Under the pieces are notes generated by a model, which saw nothing but the letters and a program-made list of their open reading frames with translations, had not been told where the DNA came from and made no database searches. A stretch of 64,000 bases of DNA from Candidatus Falkowbacteria bacterium (GTDB lineage Bacteria; Patescibacteriota; Patescibacteriia; Patescibacteriales; UBA12465), in contig JBAXJX010000002.1 of the NCBI GenBank assembly GCA_037137655.1, positions 293,730 to 357,729 of the forward strand. Direction: 5' to 3'. The translations under genes were made by a program, and so were the position numbers. Shown piece after piece: positions 2,788-42,612 of the stretch; the stretch's first letter is position 1, and the number at the start of each line of letters is the position of its first letter.

Positions 2788-4074
2788 ATGACCTATTATA
2801 TTATTGTTATCGGCTGCCAAATGAATGTGGCCGACAGTGAGCGCCTGGCAGCTTATTTAGAGTCTAATGGCTATACTTTGGCATTAGATGAGAATAAAGC
2901 TGATGTCGTGATCATTACGACCTGTGGCGTGAAGCAATCAGCCGAGGATCGGGCTTACGGCATTGTTAATCAATTGAAAAAGAAAAATAAGAAAGCGACC
3001 ATTGTGATTACTGGTTGTTTAAGTGAGCGTCCGGATGTAAAACGACGTTTGAAGGGTCAGGTTGATATTTGGTTGCCGACTATTCAAATGGAAACATTGT
3101 TGGAGCAAATAAAAAAAAGTCGTCCGAGTGATGCCAAAATTGATCCACGTAATTATCTAAAGATTGCACCAAAGTACCAATCAACTTTTACAGCTTATGT
3201 GCCTATTGGTAATGGTTGTAATAATTTTTGTTCATATTGCGCCGTGCCTTATGCGCGGGGACGTGAAGTTTATCGTCCAGCTGGAGAAATTGTGAAAGAG
3301 GTTAAAGATTTGCTGGGTCGAGGCTTTAAAGAAATTGTTTTATTGGCACAAAATGTAAATAGTTACAAATCCGGCACAGTTGATTTTCCAAAATTGTTAG
3401 AAAAAGTTAATGCCTTGCCAGGAAATTTTTGGTTACGTCTTTTTTCGAGCCATCCAAAAGATATGAGTGGGGCGCTTATTAAAACGATGGCAAAATGTGA
3501 CAAGTTATGTGAACATGTTCATTTGGCGGTTCAATCGGGTGATGACAAAATACTACAAGCTATGAATCGTAAATACACTTCAGCTCATTTTCAAGATTTA
3601 ATCGTTAAAATTCGCAAGGCCATGGCTAAACGTTCGGTGCCGGTGGCAATCACTACTGATGTGATTGTGGGTTTTCCGGGTGAAGGTAAAAAAGAATTTA
3701 AAAATACTTTGAAATTATTTAAAGATGTAAAATTCGACTTGGCTTATGTTTCCAAATACAGTCCACGCTTTGGTACAGTCGCCTCTAAAATGAAAGATGA
3801 TGTGCCTCTTGTTGAAAAGAAATTGCGCGAACAAGAGTTGGGCGCTTTATTGAAAAAAACAGCCCTGGCCAATAACAAAAGTTATTTACATAAAACGGTG
3901 GATGTTTTACTTGAAGGTCGCAATCGTCACGGTCAGTTGTATGGAAAAACTAGAACTTATAAATTTGTCACCTTAGAAGATTCCAAAAAGATTGGTGATG
4001 ATTTGATCGGACAAATTGTGAAAATAAAAATTAACCAAGTGCGCGAGTTTGCCTTGGAAGGGAAACTAGTTTAA
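2788..4074 (+). CDS. miaB: tRNA (i6A37) methylthiotransferase MiaB (radical SAM)
   Basis: N-terminal MTTase domain 'VIGCQMNVADSE', radical-SAM cluster motif 'CNNFCSYCAVPYARG', C-terminal TRAM-like region. Sits directly upstream of miaA. Confidence 0.85.
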   Translation: MTYYIIVIGCQMNVADSERLAAYLESNGYTLALDENKADVVIITTCGVKQSAEDRAYGIVNQLKKKNKKATIVITGCLSERPDVKRRLKGQVDIWLPTIQMETLLEQIKKSRPSDAKIDPRNYLKIAPKYQSTFTAYVPIGNGCNNFCSYCAVPYARGREVYRPAGEIVKEVKDLLGRGFKEIVLLAQNVNSYKSGTVDFPKLLEKVNALPGNFWLRLFSSHPKDMSGALIKTMAKCDKLCEHVHLAVQSGDDKILQAMNRKYTSAHFQDLIVKIRKAMAKRSVPVAITTDVIVGFPGEGKKEFKNTLKLFKDVKFDLAYVSKYSPRFGTVASKMKDDVPLVEKKLREQELGALLKKTALANNKSYLHKTVDVLLEGRNRHGQLYGKTRTYKFVTLEDSKKIGDDLIGQIVKIKINQVREFALEGKLV

Positions 4075-19785: not shown

Positions 19786-21288
19786 ATGAATAATAAAAAA
19801 GTTAAAGGGTTTACATTGATCGAGCTGTTAATTGTGATCGCGATTATTGGTATTTTGGCCACAATTGCAGTTATTTCTTTGCAGAATGCTCGGGTTAAAT
19901 CTCGTGATGCGCGTCGCTTATCTGATGTTGATCAAATGCAAACTGCTTTAACGCTCTATTATCGTGATAAGGGAAAATATCCAGCTATTAGCGACTTTGT
20001 GGCTGGCGGATCACTGATAGCCACTACGAGCGCTGGCACCGTGACGTACATGGCGCTTATTCCGACCGCACCGACACCAGCCGATGGAACTTGTAGTAAT
20101 AGTGATAATGCTTATCATTATTCTCCTAGTTCTGATTTTAAAAAATACACTATTTATTATTGTTTAGGCGAAAAAACTGCCGATGTTGGGTCCGGTAATC
20201 ATGCTGCGACCAGTGATGGTATAAATGCCGCCCCCGCTTGGAGTCTTTTGGGCGTTTACGATGGTTATGTCTCTGATACGACGGTTGTTAATGGCGTGCC
20301 ATATATTTCTTATAATCTTGGCCCACAAGACGGCTATCATGGCTTTGTAAAAAGATATGTAAATGGTAATTGGGAAAATGTTGGTCTTGGTAATACCGGT
20401 ATTAGTACTGGATCGGCGGTTAGTGTTTACCTTAAAACTGCTGAAAATGGCGATCTTTATGCTTTTTACATTACTTTTGATGGTGGCTCTCACGTGGTCG
20501 CAGCTAAATACACTGGAAACGGTGCGACCGGCTGGGAAGCTTTAGGTGATTCTAGCTTTTTCCCACCTTCAAGCACTAGCTTAACCGCATCATGGACAAT
20601 TAAAAATAATACAGTCTATGCTATTTATAATTATAGTGATGGCAACATTGTAGCAGCTAAGTTTAATGGCTCTAGTTGGGTGCAAATTGGCTCGATTATT
20701 GCAGGAAACTATATTGATATTGCGGGCATTGCGGTTAATGATGATAATGAGGTTTATGTTATGTATCACAAGAAGTCTGATTACGGAATTTATGTTGATA
20801 AGTTTAATTCTGGCACTTCTAGCTGGGAGCATGTTGGTGGTTATGCTGATAGTGACTACGGTTTTTCAAGCCAAGAGCATAATCTTAAAATAGTGGCCGG
20901 AAAACCGTGTGTTTTTAGTCGCGCGCAAGCATACTCTTCATATACTTTGCATGCCATGTGTTCTGACGGCTCATCTTGGGCACCATTGGGGTATAATTTA
21001 AATCCTTATGGTCCATCTGGCTTTGTTTCGACCTATAATCCTTCATATATCTCAGTTGATTATTCTGGCGGTAAGGTCTATGTGGCCTATAAAGACGCTA
21101 ATCAGGATGGAAAAATCAGTATTTTACAAAATGGTCTAAAAACCGGTGAAGAGTGGTCGGAAGTGTCTTATCCTGGTTTATCTGATGGTGTTATTTCAGC
21201 ATCTAATATGTTTATTGATAATTCTGGGGTTCTATATCTGTCTTATAATGATGGCGGTAAAACTTATATTAAAAAGTACGCTCGCTAG
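19786..21288 (+). CDS. prepilin-type protein fused to a ~400-aa repeat (beta-propeller-like) domain
   Basis: 'NNKKVKGFTLIELLIVIAIIGILATIAV' class III signal. The C-terminal region has 6-7 repeats of ~45-50 aa, each ending in '..(Y/F)(N/T)G..W..(V/L/I)G', for example 'VYAIYNYSDGNIVAAKFNGSSWVQIG' and 'VYVMYHKKSDYGIYVDKFNSGTSSWEHVG'. Confidence 0.8.
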   Translation: MNNKKVKGFTLIELLIVIAIIGILATIAVISLQNARVKSRDARRLSDVDQMQTALTLYYRDKGKYPAISDFVAGGSLIATTSAGTVTYMALIPTAPTPADGTCSNSDNAYHYSPSSDFKKYTIYYCLGEKTADVGSGNHAATSDGINAAPAWSLLGVYDGYVSDTTVVNGVPYISYNLGPQDGYHGFVKRYVNGNWENVGLGNTGISTGSAVSVYLKTAENGDLYAFYITFDGGSHVVAAKYTGNGATGWEALGDSSFFPPSSTSLTASWTIKNNTVYAIYNYSDGNIVAAKFNGSSWVQIGSIIAGNYIDIAGIAVNDDNEVYVMYHKKSDYGIYVDKFNSGTSSWEHVGGYADSDYGFSSQEHNLKIVAGKPCVFSRAQAYSSYTLHAMCSDGSSWAPLGYNLNPYGPSGFVSTYNPSYISVDYSGGKVYVAYKDANQDGKISILQNGLKTGEEWSEVSYPGLSDGVISASNMFIDNSGVLYLSYNDGGKTYIKKYAR

Positions 21289-21291
21289 CAT

Positions 21292-21319
21292 TTGACAAAT
21301 CTAAATAATCTGTTAATAT
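21292..21319 (+). promoter_or_regulatory. sigma70-type promoter for rplU
   Basis: TTGACA (21292-21297), 16-nt spacer, then TGtTAATAT extended -10 (21314-21319). A short hairpin ctacc..ggtag lies in the 65-nt leader. Confidence 0.6.
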
Positions 21320-21384
21320 TAGGAATATTGAATAAATTTAAAATTATCTACCCCAGCACTTAGCAGCTTGGTAGTCACAAAAAT

Positions 21385-21699
21385 ATGGCAAAAATTGCAG
21401 TTATCGCGACCGGAGGAAAACAATACAAAGTTCAAGAAGGTCAAACAATCAAAATTGAAAAATTAGAAAAAAATATTTCTGACAAAGTTACTTTTGACAC
21501 TTTATTAATTTCTGATGAAAATGGTGATGCTTTACAATTAGGTACTCCATCTTTGGGAGAAAAAGTTACTGCTGAAGTTACTGATCAAGGTAAAGCGGAC
21601 AAAGTTTTAGTAGTGAAGTTTAAAAACAAAACTCGCTACAAGAGAACTTACGGTCATCGCCAACCTTTCACTGCTATCAAAATCACTTCTATTGCTTAA
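21385..21699 (+). CDS. rplU: 50S ribosomal protein L21
   Basis: 'MAKIAVIATGGKQYKVQEGQTIKIEKL', 'KFKNKTRYKRTYGHRQPFT'. No rpmA follows it. Confidence 0.95.
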   Translation: MAKIAVIATGGKQYKVQEGQTIKIEKLEKNISDKVTFDTLLISDENGDALQLGTPSLGEKVTAEVTDQGKADKVLVVKFKNKTRYKRTYGHRQPFTAIKITSIA

Positions 21700-21716
21700 G
21701 ACTCTATATATAAAAA

Positions 21717-21744
21717 ACACCTCGCATCTGCGAGGTGTTTTTTT
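21717..21744 (+). terminator. intrinsic terminator after rplU
   Basis: 9-bp GC-rich stem acacctcgc/gcgaggtgt, 4-nt loop, then TTTTTT. An A-run upstream makes it potentially bidirectional. Confidence 0.85.
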
Positions 21745-21746
21745 GT

Positions 21747-22283
21747 TTATAATTTAAATCCAATTTCTTCTCGCGGTTTTTCTTCTTGGACCAGAAGATG
21801 TCGTAAAACTTCAAAAACATCACTTAATTCTTTATCGTATTTAGATTCCATGGCTTCAATTTTATCCCAGATTAATTGATTATTAATGGCTAATTCTCTT
21901 AACTTTATAAAGGTTCGCATTATTTGGATGCTAACATTGATAGCTTTTTCACTTTTTAAAACACAGGACAACATCGCCACTCCCTGTTCTGTGAATACAT
22001 AGGTTTTATATCTTGTACCGCCCCAACTTGAGGTCACAATTTGTGACCTCAAGTTTAAAACTTCATCATTGTCTAAGGAAAACATAAAATCTTCCGGGAA
22101 GCGCTCAATATTTCGTCTAACCGCCTGATTTAATACTTTTGTTTCCACTCCATAAAGCTCGGCCAAATCGCGGTCAATCATTACTTTTTTGCCACGAATC
22201 AAAAATATTCGCCCCACAATGCGTTCACTGGGAATGGCAATAATCTTATTGTTTGATTTTTCTTTGGACATAAATATTTTCAT
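21747..22283 (-). CDS. ORF6N / KilA-N-like DNA-binding protein (phage and mobile-element associated family)
   Basis: 'IFLIRGKKVMIDRDLAELYGVETKVLNQAVRRNIERFPEDFMFSL', 'LRSQIVTSSWGGTRYKTYVFTEQGVAMLS'. Start at Met 22283 or 22271; the ORF-track extension to 22367 runs into the promoter region. Confidence 0.8.
   Translation of the reverse strand: MKIFMSKEKSNNKIIAIPSERIVGRIFLIRGKKVMIDRDLAELYGVETKVLNQAVRRNIERFPEDFMFSLDNDEVLNLRSQIVTSSWGGTRYKTYVFTEQGVAMLSCVLKSEKAINVSIQIMRTFIKLRELAINNQLIWDKIEAMESKYDKELSDVFEVLRHLLVQEEKPREEIGFKL
22025..22055. repeat. 31-bp perfect palindrome (copy 1), inside the ORF6N CDS
   Basis: AACTTGAGGTCACAA-T-TTGTGACCTCAAGTT. It encodes the conserved 'LRSQIVTSSW' motif. About 44 nt including flanks recur in inverted orientation at 23430-23470. 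Confidence 0.9.
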
Positions 22284-22360
22284 TAATTGTAAATGATTAT
22301 AATTATGCCAAAAGTGAGATAAACCTTTTCTAAACAAAAAATGACAAAAATCACCAGATA

Positions 22361-22390
22361 TTGACAAAAAGATTCGGGGGGGGGTATAAT
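22361..22390 (+). promoter_or_regulatory. sigma70-type promoter with a G9 homopolymer in the spacer
   Basis: TTGACA (22361-22366), 18-nt spacer aaaagattcGGGGGGGGG (G-run 22376-22384), TATAAT (22385-22390). It lies 50 nt upstream of the ATG at 22441. Confidence 0.7.
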
Positions 22391-22440
22391 AACATTATAA
22401 GCAATATGTCAAGTTACAACTTATAATTAATTTTAAAAGT

Positions 22441-23364
22441 ATGGGAATGGAAAATTTTAATGCTCAAGGTTATCGTGATCAACTCGCCAAGGATATTAAG
22501 AGTGAGTCGGATCACGAAAAACGCCAAGAAATTTTGGAAGGTGAGAAAAATACAGTACGTTACGATGTGGCGGAGAATAAAAGTTTTGCCAAACGTGAAT
22601 ATGCAATGAATCAAAATAAAGAGAAAAAAGAAGCTATAAAACAAAAAGAATTAAAAGAATTGGAAATTATTGGGTGTACTACCGAAGAAATCGCTTATGG
22701 ATTAGACAAGGTGAATGAAAAAAAGAAGGTTTATGTTGGTGAATGGAATTTAGAAATTTTTAAAAAAATGCCAAAAAATATAGAACATATTTATACGTCA
22801 TTTCCAGAAGTAAAAATAGTTAAAGAAAATATAAAATTATCAAATAGTACCTCCGAAGAATATTTGGACAAATTAAAAAAAGATGGAATTAAGGTCTCGG
22901 CCTTTGCCGAAGAAGCAATACTTCCAAAAATGCCACAAATAAACGATGGCCGTGTTGTTTCTTTGATCCAATTTTCTATTAGCCAACTAGGTTTTTCTGG
23001 TGATGCTTCTTTGTCTGAGATTTATAAAAAGGCGGTGGAGTCTGGATTGATTTTATGTCCTCCACAGGTTGGACCAGAAATTTGCTTGAAATATAATAAT
23101 AGCCCAATTTGCGAACATTTTAATTATTTGAATATTGCGATGGATCCGGTACCTGACGGTGATGGTAATCTTAATAATACTAATAATGGTATGACACTTT
23201 TTCATATTAATTCACGTGAAAATAATAAACTTGAACTTAATGATATGTATTCAGGTTCAGGAATGGACTATCCTTGGCATAATGGTTCCGCTAATGATTC
23301 CAGTAAATTTGTCTTTTGTGTTTCAGAATCAAAAAAAGCAGATAATGAGAATGTTGAAAAATAA
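22441..23364 (+). CDS. hypothetical protein (307 aa), no recognised domain
   Basis: Long ORF with a Lys/Glu-rich N-terminal third and an Asn/Gly/Ser-rich C-terminus. It has its own promoter and terminator. Confidence 0.7.
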   Translation: MGMENFNAQGYRDQLAKDIKSESDHEKRQEILEGEKNTVRYDVAENKSFAKREYAMNQNKEKKEAIKQKELKELEIIGCTTEEIAYGLDKVNEKKKVYVGEWNLEIFKKMPKNIEHIYTSFPEVKIVKENIKLSNSTSEEYLDKLKKDGIKVSAFAEEAILPKMPQINDGRVVSLIQFSISQLGFSGDASLSEIYKKAVESGLILCPPQVGPEICLKYNNSPICEHFNYLNIAMDPVPDGDGNLNNTNNGMTLFHINSRENNKLELNDMYSGSGMDYPWHNGSANDSSKFVFCVSESKKADNENVEK

Positions 23365-23382
23365 TATTTTGTAGATATAAAA

Positions 23383-23412
23383 AACTCGAGCCGTACACGG
23401 CTCGAGTTTTTT
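23383..23412 (+). terminator. intrinsic terminator after the 307-aa gene
   Basis: 10-bp stem actcgagccg/cggctcgagt, loop taca, then TTTTTT. Confidence 0.85.
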
Positions 23413-23437
23413 GTTTGAGTAATTTATAGAAAGTTTA

Positions 23438-23468
23438 AACTTGAAGTCACAATTTGTGACCTCAAGTT
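23438..23468. repeat. 31-bp palindrome (copy 2, one mismatch), 4 nt beyond the recR stop
   Basis: AACTTGAAGTCACAA-T-TTGTGACCTCAAGTT. On the + strand it reads 'NLKSQFVTSSW' and then hits a stop, so it looks like a relic of an ORF6N motif or a dedicated repeat. Confidence 0.85.
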
Positions 23469-23472
23469 GGAT

Positions 23473-24081
23473 TTAAATAATATTCCGATACTTCAAGGCA
23501 TTACCGAGCGTCATCTCATCGACATATTCTAAATTCGCACCCATCGGCAAGCCACGGGCGAGACGGGAAATTTTTATCTTGGGATTTTTTAAAAGTTTAC
23601 TTAAATACATCGCCGTGCTTTCACCTTCCATGGTTGGGGAGAGCGCTAAAATAATTTCAATATTATTTTTTACTTTTAATAAGGCATTAATTTTCTCGGC
23701 CAATTTTCTGATATTTAAATCTTCCGGTTTAATACCATCAATCGCATTGATTAAACCGCCAAGCACAAAATACTGACCATTGAATTGGTTGGTGTTTTCC
23801 ATGCTAATTAAATCTTGTAAATTGGCGACGATACAAATTAGGGCTTCATCTCTTTTTTTGTCGCTACAAATTTCACATGGATCGCTTTCGGAAATTCGTT
23901 GGCAGGAAGAACAGACGGTAATATTATTTTTTAGTTCACTTAAATAATGCCCGAACATTTTTAATCTTTCTGGACTTTGTTTTAAGAGATAAAAAACATA
24001 ACGTTCGGCTGTTTTAGGGCCGACCGTTGGAAGTTTCGAGAATTGCTCGATTAAATTTTTGATGCTGGCCGGATATTTCAT
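23473..24081 (-). CDS. recR: recombination protein RecR
   Basis: 'LIEQFSKLPTVGPKTAERYVFYLL', Cys4 zinc finger 'CSSCQRISESDPCEIC', Toprim region. Confidence 0.95.
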   Translation of the reverse strand: MKYPASIKNLIEQFSKLPTVGPKTAERYVFYLLKQSPERLKMFGHYLSELKNNITVCSSCQRISESDPCEICSDKKRDEALICIVANLQDLISMENTNQFNGQYFVLGGLINAIDGIKPEDLNIRKLAEKINALLKVKNNIEIILALSPTMEGESTAMYLSKLLKNPKIKISRLARGLPMGANLEYVDEMTLGNALKYRNII

Positions 24082-24096
24082 ACGGCGTAAGAATTA

Positions 24097-24372
24097 TTAG
24101 TTTAAGCCTGGAAAACCGCCCATTTCTTGCATTTTTTTAGCCATTAATCTTTGAGTTTGTTTCATGGCATCGTTCACAGCAGTTTTAATAGCGCTCTCTA
24201 AACTAGCTTTATCAAGTTCGGAATTAACAACAACTTCAGTTATTTCCATATTACCATTCATGGCAATTTTCACGCCATTTTTTTCGGCGCTAATAGTTTC
24301 GCCGGCTAAAGCTCCTTGCATTTTTTTAGCTTGGTCACGTAAATCTTTGATTTGTTTTAATTTGTTGAACAT
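24097..24372 (-). CDS. YbaB/EbfC family nucleoid-associated protein
   Basis: 91 aa: 'MFNKLKQIKDLRDQAKKMQGAL', 'GNMEITEVVVNSEL'. The ybaB-recR pairing is conserved. Confidence 0.85.
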   Translation of the reverse strand: MFNKLKQIKDLRDQAKKMQGALAGETISAEKNGVKIAMNGNMEITEVVVNSELDKASLESAIKTAVNDAMKQTQRLMAKKMQEMGGFPGLN

Positions 24373-26019: not shown

Positions 26020-26091
26020 GCGCTGTTAGCTCAGCGGTAGAGCAGATCCCTTTTAAGGATAAGGTCGAAAGTTCGAATCTTTCACGGCGCA
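26020..26091 (+). tRNA. tRNA-Lys (anticodon UUU)
   Basis: Manual cloverleaf: acceptor GCGCTGT/ACGGCGC (one G-U), D arm GCTC-AGCGGTA-GAGC, anticodon loop CT-TTT-AA, T arm GAAAG-TTCGAAT-CTTTC. CCA is not encoded. Confidence 0.85.
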
Positions 26092-26126
26092 CATTCCGTT
26101 CATTAGTAATGACGGGTTTTAAAAAA

Positions 26127-26199
26127 GCCATCTTAGCTCAGCTGGTAGAGCAGCTGTCTTGTAAACAGCAGGTCGTCGGTCCGAATCCGACAGATGGCT
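26127..26199 (+). tRNA. tRNA-Thr (anticodon UGU)
   Basis: Manual cloverleaf: acceptor GCCATCT/AGATGGC, D arm GCTC-AGCTGGTA-GAGC, anticodon stem GCTGT/ACAGC with loop CT-TGT-AA, T arm GTCGG-TCCGAAT-CCGAC. Confidence 0.85.
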
Positions 26200-26293
26200 C
26201 ACATAAAAAACATCAAAAGGCGCAAGCCTTTTTTTGTTTGGCGGATTTATTAAAATGTGTTATATTATTATCATAGTTTCTTATGTTTAAAAT

Positions 26294-42566: not shown

Positions 42567-42586
42567 TATTTTCTTCTTATAAAAAA

Positions 42587-42612
42587 AGAACTCCACATTG
42601 GAGTTCTTTTTT
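42587..42612 (+). terminator. intrinsic terminator closing the pilus locus
   Basis: 9-bp stem agaactcca/tggagttct, loop cat, then TTTTT. An A7 run upstream. Confidence 0.85.

What the first reader, a model, noticed from the sequence alone, without database searches (positions are those of the whole stretch)
22025..23468. Two copies of a 31-bp palindrome bracket a 1.4-kb islet (ORF6N 5' half, poly-G promoter, unknown gene)
Copy 1 (22025-22055, perfect) lies inside the ORF6N CDS and encodes its conserved 'LRSQIVTSSW' motif. Copy 2 (23438-23468, one mismatch) lies 4 nt past the recR stop. About 44 nt including flanks match in inverted orientation (GAAGTTTTAAACTTGAGGTCACAAATTGTGACCTCAAGTTGG versus GAAAGTTTAAACTTGAAGTCACAATTTGTGACCTCAAGTTGG). 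Because the core is palindromic, it codes the same peptide on either strand.

Possible readings:
- a relic of a second ORF6N gene
- a recombination or inversion site pair that could flip the promoter-bearing segment
- the binding site of the ORF6N DNA-binding protein itself
- for copy 2, a 15-bp-stem hairpin that terminates recR

The islet interrupts an otherwise housekeeping stretch (rplU ... recR-ybaB-dnaB).
Basis: seen in the sequence. Interest (0 to 1): 0.55.

Follow-up and report, generated by a model that had tools for sequence, protein, structure and literature searches.

The report
ORF6N gene carries its own operator
The two palindromes are real; the one inside the ORF6N gene is a DNA element present in about 92% of 231 ORF6N genes sampled from many phyla, it changes in step with the protein's predicted DNA-reading helix, and so it is most likely the protein's own binding site written into its coding sequence, with the second copy a detached matching site next to recR.

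Summary
A 31-bp palindrome lies at 22025-22055 (perfect, inside ORF6N) and at 23438-23468 (one mismatch, 4 nt after the recR stop).

It is not a codon-level accident. In 231 non-redundant ORF6N genes from many phyla, found through peptide patterns outside the motif, 92% carry a palindrome at this spot. On average 11.0 of 12 arm positions pair, against 7.7 after synonymous recoding. Thirteen of 15 pairs show compensatory double changes. G·U pairs are no commoner than chance, so the constraint is on DNA, not RNA.

The decisive result concerns three residues of the predicted HTH recognition helix (K45, V46, Q49 in the window protein). They track the palindrome's variable bases almost perfectly, down to the synonymous Ser codon: TCA→Gln 81/81, TCG→Glu 23/23, AGC→Arg 11/11. 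This is protein-DNA co-evolution.

About 30 non-coding solo copies hug ORF6N genes in other loci. Copy 2 is of the type that matches the window protein. It sits in a 50-60-nt insertion between the recR stop and its orthologous terminator, and a close relative shares it.

I found no evidence for inversion, and copy 2 is not needed as a terminator. The recR-rplU gap is a variable slot. ORF6N matches the candidate defence family PDC-S05. Binding itself is inferred, not shown.

The parts
22025..22055 (.). Copy 1: perfect 31-bp palindrome inside the ORF6N coding sequence (codons N74-S83). It is the family-wide intragenic dyad element. Half-site TTGAGGTCACAA.
23438..23468 (.). Copy 2: non-coding solo copy with one mismatch. 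Same inner type (TCACAA) as copy 1, so it matches the window protein.
23413..23472 (.). Stretch of 60 nt between the recR stop and the terminator (a net insertion of about 50 nt). It contains copy 2. It is present in the window genome and in relative L251/L252, and absent in L249 and L247/L248.
21747..22271 (-). ORF6N gene, 174 aa. Pfam PF10543; PADLOC PDC-S05. Predicted HTH, then a lower-confidence loop, then a long C-terminal helix.
22113..22142 (-). Codons for the predicted recognition helix T44-R53 (TKVLNQAVRR). K45, V46 and Q49 are the residues that co-vary with palindrome positions -7, -5 and -4.
22361..22390 (+). Consensus sigma-70-type promoter TTGACA-18-TATAAT with a G9 run (22376-22384) in the spacer. 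It faces the 307-aa gene.
22441..23364 (+). 307-aa ORFan gene, the cargo of the variable recR-rplU slot.
23379..23412 (.). Bidirectional intrinsic terminator with a 16-bp stem and A and T tracts. It is orthologous to the recR terminator of relatives.
21712..21743 (.). Bidirectional terminator shared by rplU (+) and ORF6N (-).
23473..24081 (-). recR. It bounds the islet on one side; rplU (21385-21699, +) bounds it on the other.

Best explanation
The palindrome is the dyad-symmetric DNA site read by the ORF6N protein itself.

The protein is predicted to have an N-terminal helix-turn-helix (helices 33-40 and 44-53) and a long C-terminal helix (108-144) that could pair two subunits. In this model each recognition helix reads one half-site, 5'-TTGA(G/A)(G/A)T(C/G/T/A)(A/G/C)CAA-3'.

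The primary site sits inside the protein's own coding sequence, about 230 nt after the start codon. There it also encodes the 'LRSQ[I/F]VTS' motif, in a segment the model predicts with lower confidence.

The most likely use is promoter-independent self-control. The bound dimer would block or loop its own gene, so the control travels with a gene that lands in many genomic contexts.

In this window the protein (K45/V46/Q49) matches the TCACAA type of both copies. Copy 2 is a detached matching site. It is a palindrome-centred ORF6N fragment of about 45-60 nt, deposited between the recR stop and its terminator before this genome and its closest sampled relative diverged. It may pair with copy 1 to loop the 1.4-kb segment that holds both divergent promoters.

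Shown: the palindrome is family-wide; it is constrained at DNA level; it co-evolves with the helix residues; solo copies cluster next to ORF6N genes; copy 2 lies in an insertion.

Inferred: physical binding, dimerisation, and autoregulation by roadblock.

Speculative: looping between copies 1 and 2.
For: (1) Family-wide. Loci were found by peptide patterns outside the motif. Of 231 non-redundant genes, 92% have at least 10 of 12 arm positions paired. The mean is 11.0, against 7.7 after recoding with each gene's own codon usage; 87% exceed the best of 20 recodings.

(2) Compensatory change. On 149 sequences 90.9% of cells pair, against 73.9% in shuffles (0 of 500 reach it) and 27-44% with slid partners. 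Thirteen of 15 pairs have double changes; 357 cells changed on both sides against 98 expected.

(3) DNA rather than RNA. Only 17 of 103 non-Watson-Crick cells in stem columns 6-15 are G.U, which is chance level. A.C outnumbers G.T on the sense strand.

(4) Co-evolution with the helix. In 152 genes the inner bases (-5,-4) predict HMM column 47: TCACAA→Q 81/81, TCGCAA→R44/E47 25/25, TGCCAA and TACCAA→R 28/28, and TTCCAA mostly N44/K47 (8 of 15 N/K, 10 of 15 K47; the R47 cases have a TTC/GGC hybrid). Mutual information is 1.35-1.53 bits, against at most 0.43 for any other non-motif column, and 0.09 (maximum 0.21) under within-cluster permutation. For the same amino acid Ser the codon predicts the helix residue: TCA→Q 81/81, TCG→E 23/23, AGC→R 11/11. 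Column 43 tracks base -7: GG→K 74/75. The nearest neighbour of a different type is as similar elsewhere (69%) as the nearest of the same type (70%), so the link is not deep phylogeny. A separate set of 117 proteins (the top homologues of the window protein, mostly of its type) shows the same rule: Q↔SQ.V 103/103, plus a further class L↔SQ.E 7/7. The pairings fit known preferences (Gln/Asn-A, Arg/Lys-G, Glu-C; my own knowledge).

(5) Structure. Residues 45, 46 and 49 lie on helix 44-53 of an HTH with pLDDT about 89. The palindrome-encoded segment (residues 71-90) is lower-confidence at 52-69. Weak fold matches are to the Dachshund/SKI DNA-binding domain and to wHTH regulators.

(6) Solo copies. 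About 30 distinct non-coding copies keep the same half-site consensus. They lie 2-136 nt upstream (25) or 14-78 nt downstream (7) of ORF6N genes, roughly 100 times denser than elsewhere in 1.23 Mb.

(7) Copy 2 has the matching type. Its 31-mer is identical in relative L251, although the surrounding 214 nt are 87% identical.
Against: No binding experiment exists.

Solo copies next to ORF6N genes match the adjacent gene's type no more often than chance (9 of 28, against 10.5 expected). Many upstream solos are therefore not simple self-operators; they may be sites for paralogues, or relics.

Copy 2 lies between two convergent gene ends, 1.17 kb from the ORF6N start, and not at a promoter.

Arms reach 17-19 bp in some subfamilies, longer than a typical operator.

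Truncated ORF6N fragments break at the palindrome, which shows the element also behaves as a fragile or recombinogenic hairpin.

The HTH assignment rests on AlphaFold models of moderate quality (mean pLDDT 73-75). Fold matches are weak (E of at least 0.13). There is no PDB sequence relative.
Confidence: 0.6

Rival explanations
1. Copy 2 is only a decaying relic of a second ORF6N gene with no present function. Solo copies in general are what remains when tandem or neighbouring ORF6N paralogues are deleted up to the palindrome.
For: Copy 2 keeps ORF6N-like flanking codons (IESLN...SSW, including the position of the conserved E70). Tandem ORF6N arrays are common: 26 of 246 loci have at least 2 domain hits. 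Half-gene fragments ending at the palindrome exist in L113, L093, L128, L134 and L119. Solo copies often differ in type from the adjacent gene, as relics of paralogues would.
Against: Outgroups place the recR stop directly before the orthologous terminator, so a whole gene would have had to enter there and then lose both halves exactly. The 31-mer is unchanged between two lineages whose flanks differ by 13%. Solos outnumber half-gene intermediates about 6 to 1. They keep dyad symmetry and the half-site consensus without any coding constraint.
Confidence: 0.2
2. The palindrome works, or merely behaves, as a DNA hairpin or cruciform: a recombination and breakage hot spot or a small mobile patch. 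Its arms are kept symmetric by template switching at quasi-palindromes, independently of any protein.
For: Arm symmetry is near perfect at every position, and arm length varies up to 19 bp. The invariant centre CAA-W-TTG is AT-rich. The centre base is A in 89 and T in 86 of 178 genes. Some genes carry second or third in-frame palindromes of a different type (L044, L073, L169, L249). Fragment breakpoints fall at the palindrome. Copy 2 arrived as a patch insertion. ORF6N sits at different sites and in both orientations in close relatives.
Against: This cannot explain why helix residues 45, 46 and 49, some 90 nt away, predict the arm bases and even the synonymous codons. No recombinase or transposase is linked to the gene. 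It may be a side property of an operator-like palindrome rather than a true alternative.
Confidence: 0.1
3. The two copies are an invertible-segment pair (an inverton) that flips the 1.4-kb promoter-bearing segment. This would switch ORF6N between a full-length form and a truncated form ending ...SSWI-stop.
For: A 42-nt inverted repeat flanks a segment that holds two divergent promoters. After inversion the ORF6N N-terminal half would run in frame into a stop codon; I derived this from the sequence.
Against: The assemblies read from three different samples show one orientation (L001-L003; 7 contigs listed). No recombinase lies within 10 kb on either side. Relative L251 keeps copy 2 with a different cargo gene. 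No inverted half-genes occur in 246 loci.
Confidence: 0.04
4. The palindromes act as RNA hairpins. Copy 2 would be a recR terminator or 3'-end stabiliser, and copy 1 an mRNA processing or translation signal.
For: Both fold stably as RNA. In the recR/ORF6N sense strand the single mismatch of copy 2 becomes a G.U pair. Several solo copies follow the stop codon of an upstream co-directional gene.
Against: G.U pairs are at chance frequency among non-Watson-Crick cells. In solo copies G.T 13 and A.C 12 are balanced on the sense strand. Copy 2 has no U-tract and is followed by a canonical terminator that relatives use alone. No Rfam family matches.
Confidence: 0.05

Closest known systems
Phage lambda O protein and ori-lambda (iterons inside the O gene); comparison from my own knowledge
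   Same: Dyad-symmetric sites for a DNA-binding protein lie in frame inside that protein's own gene. They sit between an N-terminal DNA-binding part and the C-terminal part, in a structurally permissive segment. Site and protein specificity differ together among related phages. Some ORF6N genes even carry 2-3 tandem in-frame palindromes.
   Different: ORF6N is not a known replication initiator and is unrelated in sequence. It usually has one site rather than four. It is found as a lone chromosomal gene with no replication module.
ParB/Spo0J and parS (a 16-bp palindrome inside spo0J in B. subtilis); my own knowledge
   Same: A palindromic matching site lies within the gene of the protein that binds it, and specificity classes co-evolve.
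   Different: parS is not embedded at one fixed codon position across the whole family, and it does not define a conserved protein motif. There is no ParA partner here.
Intragenic auxiliary operators with DNA looping (gal OI in galE, lac O2 in lacZ); my own knowledge
   Same: An operator inside a coding sequence pairs with a second operator, so that the promoter region is enclosed.
   Different: Those sites lie in a regulated target gene, not in the regulator's own DNA-binding domain. Looping is untested here, and the spacing is 1.4 kb.
PADLOC candidate defence system PDC-S05
   Same: The window ORF6N protein matches three PDC-S05 profiles over its full length (E = 8e-59). One PDC-S05 representative lowered plating of T7 and T5 about 1000-fold in E. 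coli (bioRxiv 10.1101/2024.09.26.614923).
   Different: The tested representative is described as carrying a RhuM domain. Nothing is published on a palindrome or a mechanism. Defence activity of this gene is untested.
Invertons (invertible promoters flanked by inverted repeats)
   Same: An inverted repeat pair flanks a promoter-bearing segment.
   Different: There is no invertase nearby and no second orientation in the assemblies. The repeat is itself a palindrome that belongs to the ORF6N gene family.
REP elements and RAYT transposases; my own knowledge
   Same: Short palindromes sit just after stop codons and flank a particular gene.
   Different: The copies are not dispersed: 2 in 64 kb, and solos lie almost only within about 140 nt of ORF6N genes. 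There is no Y1 transposase, and the key copy is coding.
Dachshund/SKI DHD winged-helix-like DNA-binding fold
   Same: It is the best structural match of the N-terminal 90-100 residues (probability 0.96, TM 0.57 on the target, rmsd 3.3 A).
   Different: The E-value is only 0.13 and sequence identity is 9%. This is a fold resemblance, not membership.

Membership tests
ORF6N domain family (Pfam PF10543) | Profile match above the curated gathering score | tested here: met
   122.1 bits against a cut-off of 27.8, E = 1.2e-35, residues 22-104. More than 8000 homologues, named ORF6N domain-containing protein by NCBI.
PADLOC PDC-S05 candidate defence system | Full-length match to a PDC-S05 profile | tested here: met
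   PDLC04869 E = 8.3e-59; PDLC04856 E = 1.9e-58, covering profile positions 6-174 of 177.
PADLOC PDC-S05 candidate defence system | Protects against phage | not testable with these tools
   Only a literature report on a different representative.
Matching operator of a dimeric HTH regulator | Dyad-symmetric site | tested here: met
   Arms of 13-15 bp are paired in 92% of 231 genes.
Matching operator of a dimeric HTH regulator | Site bases and recognition-helix residues change together | tested here: met
   Columns 43, 44 and 47 against bases -7, -5 and -4. Mutual information 1.35-1.53 bits; synonymous Ser codons are predicted 115 of 115 times.
Matching operator of a dimeric HTH regulator | Physical binding, and an effect on transcription | not testable with these tools
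   Needs EMSA, ChIP or reporter assays.
Matching operator of a dimeric HTH regulator | Flanking sites match the adjacent regulator | tested here: inconclusive
   The window pair matches. Across loci only 9 of 28 solo copies match, against 10.5 expected by chance.
Inverton / invertible segment | Inverted repeats flank a promoter | tested here: met
   42-nt inverted repeat at 90%; promoter at 22361-22390.
Inverton / invertible segment | Site-specific recombinase gene nearby | tested here: not met
   Pfam lists for 10 kb on each side show none.
Inverton / invertible segment | Both orientations are seen in sequence data | tested here: not met
   L001, L002 and L003 come from three samples and all show one state. 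Reads could not be examined.
Intrinsic terminator (for copy 2) | G+C-rich stem followed by a U-run | tested here: not met
   The scan does not call it. The tail is UAAACUUUCUAUAAAU. The canonical terminator lies 25 nt downstream.
Structured cis-regulatory RNA | G.U pairs are tolerated in the stem, or an Rfam family matches | tested here: not met
   17 of 103 non-Watson-Crick cells are G.U, which is chance level. No Rfam match at the palindromes.
REP/RAYT-type repeat | Many dispersed extragenic copies and a Y1 transposase | tested here: not met
   Only 2 copies in 64 kb. Solos are confined to ORF6N flanks. No such gene nearby. The whole genome was not scanned.

The most novel reading that the evidence does not exclude
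ORF6N/PDC-S05 genes form a set of orthogonal 'self-addressed' specificity classes: helix residue Q, R/E, R, N/K or L paired with TCACAA, TCGCAA, (T/A)GCCAA, TTCCAA or TCTCAA sites. Because the address is written inside the gene, a cell's ORF6N protein could recognise incoming phage or plasmid ORF6N (anti-repressor-like) genes of the same class and block them. The non-matching solo sites upstream of ORF6N genes could be sensors for foreign ORF6N proteins. That would make this an immunity or incompatibility system built on a protein motif that doubles as its own operator.
Probability: 0.1. Interest if true: 0.9.

Novelty: new variant of a known kind. Interest (0 to 1): 0.72.

Why it matters
A 'conserved protein motif' of a very large and almost unstudied domain family turns out to be conserved mainly because it is a DNA site. 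More than 8000 close homologues were found; in a held library of open-access (Creative Commons) PubMed Central papers and bioRxiv preprints, 11 papers mention ORF6N and none mentions a palindrome.

The family also offers a readable recognition code: three helix positions against three base pairs, with at least five classes. That gives a direct experimental handle on an orphan family that is listed as a candidate phage-defence gene. It is also a natural example of a regulator that carries its own operator inside its coding sequence, and a caution for motif-based inference of protein function.

For this window, it explains both palindromes and shows that the recR-rplU gap is a variable slot.

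Tried and rejected
- **Rfam.** A scan of 21300-24200 at E up to 10 found nothing at the palindromes, only terminator-like chance hits.
- **PDB, NCBIfam, PHROGs.** There is no PDB sequence relative. NCBIfam gave nothing. PHROGs gave only 'anti-repressor'.
- **-1 frameshift signal.** TTTAAAC precedes both window copies in the right phase, but it is not conserved in the family, so I rejected it.
- **Sense-strand G.U excess.** There is none in genes. An early 4:0 hint in solo copies vanished with more data, at 13 to 12.
- **Solo copies as recent duplicates or matching operators of the adjacent gene.** Similarity is not above chance (P = 0.087; 9 of 28 type matches).
- **Homologues of the 307-aa protein.** Only itself among 5.8 billion proteins. 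It has no family in any library and is unrelated to the cargo genes of relatives.
- **Inverted ORF6N halves.** None in 246 loci.
- **Cultured, annotated phages.** Only 5 unannotated faecal phage records carry a relative.
- **Exact 31-mer class in viral contigs.** One contig only.
- **Literature.** No paper links ORF6N, KilA-N, RhuM or PDC-S05 to a palindrome.
- **Look-up with a wrong ORF6N start codon.** Failed.
Full report
**Observation.** The window comes from a Candidatus Falkowbacteria (CPR) genome, a 965-kb contig.

Gene order around the finding is as follows:
- pilin-like gene, 19786-21288 (+)
- rplU, 21385-21699 (+)
- ORF6N, 21747-22271 (-)
- a 307-aa gene, 22441-23364 (+)
- recR, 23473-24081 (-)
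- ybaB, then dnaB

The 31-bp palindrome AACTTGAGGTCACAA-W-TTGTGACCTCAAGTT is perfect at 22025-22055. It has one mismatch at 23438-23468. With flanks the two copies form a 42-nt inverted repeat at 90% identity. No further copy exists in 64 kb with up to 3 mismatches, and none is expected by chance.

**The intragenic copy is a family-wide DNA element.** I collected 240 ORF6N loci from GTDB genomes, JGI metagenomes and IMG/VR. The peptide patterns used (RFPxDFMF, FTEQGVAM) lie outside the motif, so the sample is blind to the palindrome.
- Of 231 non-redundant genes, 92% have at least 10 of 12 arm positions complementary at the same place, about nt 225 of the gene.
- The mean is 11.0 paired positions. 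It is 7.7 when the same protein is recoded with the gene's own codon usage and the best centre is again chosen.
- On 149 sequences, 90.9% of cells pair, against 73.9% in column shuffles (0 of 500 reach the observed value) and 27-44% with slid partners.
- Thirteen of 15 pairs carry double compensatory changes.

The arms change in a coordinated way that drags the amino acids along: TCA..GTG (S..V), TCG..GCG (S..A), TGC..GGC (C..G), TTC..GGA (F..G), TAC..GGT (Y..G), TTGAGG..CCTCAA, TTGAAA..TTTCAA, TGGAGG..CCTCCA. Pairing is at least 92% at positions 2-6 and 9-13. It falls to about 62% at positions 14-15 and to random beyond that. The centre base is A in 89 genes and T in 86, which gives Ile or Phe.

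**DNA, not RNA.** Among non-Watson-Crick cells of the stem only 17 of 103 are G.U, the chance proportion. On the sense strand A.C outnumbers G.T. In solo copies the two are balanced, 13 to 12. No Rfam family matches.

**The decisive result: the protein reads this DNA.** AlphaFold models (mean pLDDT 73-75) give the following layout:
- a helix-turn-helix, helices 33-40 and 44-53, with pLDDT about 89
- a lower-confidence segment, residues 71-90 (pLDDT 52-69), which contains the palindrome-encoded peptide (residues 74-83)
- a long C-terminal helix, residues 108-144

I computed mutual information between every protein column and the palindrome's variable bases. Apart from the columns encoded by the palindrome itself, two stand out: HMM columns 44 and 47, which are V46 and Q49 in the window protein. 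Their values are 1.35 and 1.53 bits. Every other column is at most 0.43, and a within-cluster permutation gives 0.09.

The rule is almost deterministic:

| Inner half-site | Helix residues | Count |
|---|---|---|
| TCACAA | Gln47 | 81/81 |
| TCGCAA | Arg44 / Glu47 | 25/25 |
| TGCCAA and TACCAA | Arg47 | 28/28 |
| TTCCAA | mostly Asn44 / Lys47 (the R47 cases have a TTC/GGC hybrid) | 8/15 N/K; Lys47 10/15 |

Column 43 (K45) tracks base -7: GG goes with Lys in 74 of 75 genes.

The rule holds for synonymous codons of one amino acid. Ser TCA goes with Gln (81/81), Ser TCG with Glu (23/23), and Ser AGC with Arg (11/11). A protein-internal contact cannot explain that.

Genes of different type are as similar over the rest of the protein (69%) as genes of the same type (70%), so the link is not inherited clade structure. 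A separate set of 117 proteins (the top homologues of the window protein, mostly of its type) shows the same rule and adds a Leu47↔SQ.E class.

Residues 45, 46 and 49 lie on one face of the second HTH helix. The pairings fit the usual Gln/Asn-adenine, Arg/Lys-guanine and Glu-cytosine preferences (my own knowledge).

**Solo copies.** About 30 distinct non-coding palindromes with the same half-site consensus occur in the fetched loci.
- Twenty-five lie 2-136 nt upstream of an ORF6N start.
- Seven lie 14-78 nt after the stop.
- Only about four lie farther away in 1.23 Mb, an enrichment of roughly 100-fold.

Solo copies are often of a different specificity type from the adjacent gene (9 of 28 match, 10.5 expected). 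Many may therefore serve paralogues or be relics. This is the main unexplained point.

Truncated ORF6N fragments tend to break at the palindrome (L113, L093, L119, L128, L134). Some genes carry two or three in-frame palindromes of different type (L044, L073, L169, L249). The element therefore also behaves as a recombination-prone hairpin.

**History of copy 2 and the islet.** I compared loci of RecR relatives.
- L251/L252 (RecR 94% identical): recR stop, 3 nt, the same palindrome with the same mismatch, then the same terminator, but a different cargo gene of 169 aa.
- L249 (RecR 86%): the stop is followed directly by the orthologous terminator. Next come ddl and a frameshifted ORF6N in the opposite orientation, with two intragenic palindromes.
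- L247/L248 (RecR 91%): neither a palindrome nor ORF6N. An unrelated 272-aa gene fills the gap.
- L253: an 85%-identical, 5'-truncated ORF6N sits after recG in a contig from the same sample as L247.

Copy 2 thus lies within a 60-nt stretch (23413-23472), a net insertion of about 50 nt between the recR stop and its own terminator. That stretch carries ORF6N-like codons (IESLN-LKSQFVTSS-W). The recR-rplU gap is a variable slot. The 307-aa gene has no homologue among 5.8 billion proteins.

**What it is not.**
- Not an inversion switch. I saw one orientation in assemblies from three samples, no recombinase within 10 kb, and no inverted halves anywhere. Reads could not be examined.
- Not a needed terminator. 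Copy 2 has no U-run and precedes the conserved canonical terminator.

**Context.** The protein matches the PADLOC candidate defence family PDC-S05 at E = 8e-59. One PDC-S05 member with a RhuM domain protected E. coli against T7, T5 and T4 in a preprint. In the held open-access library 11 papers mention ORF6N and none mentions a palindrome.

**Verdict.** A conserved 'protein motif' is primarily the protein's own DNA target, with a recognition code that can be read from the sequences. Binding, dimerisation, autoregulation and looping remain inferences.

Noticed in passing
window 22361-22390 (G9 at 22376-22384): A perfect sigma-70-type promoter (TTGACA, 18 nt, TATAAT) has a G9 homopolymer in its spacer and faces the ORFan gene. 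Such a tract could give slipped-strand phase variation. The tract is 9 nt in all three assemblies (L001-L003).
   Followed up: partly
window 22441-23364: The 307-aa protein has no homologue among 5.8 billion proteins and no hit in Pfam, PHROGs, NCBIfam or PADLOC. Relatives carry unrelated genes in the same slot: 169 aa in L251, 272/325 aa in L247/L248, and ddl in L249.
   Followed up: yes
L249 4146-4174, about 3490-3520 and about 2415-2444: Three nearly identical terminators (AAAAAACTCGCCTGCTrGGCGAGTTTTTT) follow rplU, ORF6N and ddl/recR within 1.8 kb. It looks as if gene cassettes were inserted together with, or at, a repeated terminator. The window's terminator at 23379-23412 is of the same family.
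   Followed up: no
L044 3160-3380; L073; L169; L249 3794-3866: Some ORF6N genes hold two or three in-frame palindromes of different types, for example ...DWTSQFVISSNDNDKNLRSQIVTSSWGG. They look like unequal recombinants between ORF6N genes of different specificity classes.
   Followed up: partly
L128 3190-3521; L134 5005-5322; L113 285-542; L093 2035-2175; L119 1300-1383: Truncated ORF6N fragments lie next to intact genes, with a breakpoint at or beside the palindrome in five of the seven true fragments (excluding hits merely split by a duplicated motif). The palindrome is a rearrangement hot spot.
   Followed up: partly
L054, L040, L033, L063, L121, L130, L154, L159 (upstream or downstream solo copies): Solo palindromes next to ORF6N genes are frequently of a different specificity type from the adjacent gene. 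The TCGCAA type is over-represented among solos (8 of 28, against about 12% of genes). This may point to cross-regulation between ORF6N paralogues.
   Followed up: partly
L253 3261-3701: A 5'-truncated ORF6N, 85% identical in DNA to the window gene, sits directly after recG in a contig from the same sample as the ORF6N-less recR-rplU locus L247. The gene occupies different sites in closely related genomes.
   Followed up: partly
L011, L044, L050, L068, L097, L106, L123, L150: The exact 31-mer class of the window (AACTTGARGTCACAAWTTGTGACYTCAAGTT) recurs in ORF6N genes of unrelated phyla, including Bacteroidota and Nitrospirota. ORF6N proteins are about 60% identical across phyla, which suggests horizontal spread.
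   Followed up: partly
window 42582-42612: AAAAAAGAACTCCACATTGGAGTTCTTTTTT is a terminator-like palindrome that met my loose CA..TG centre filter. It is unrelated to the ORF6N element.
   Followed up: no
window 26020-26092 and 26127-26200: tRNA-Lys(ttt) and tRNA-Thr(tgt) lie just beyond dnaB.
   Followed up: no
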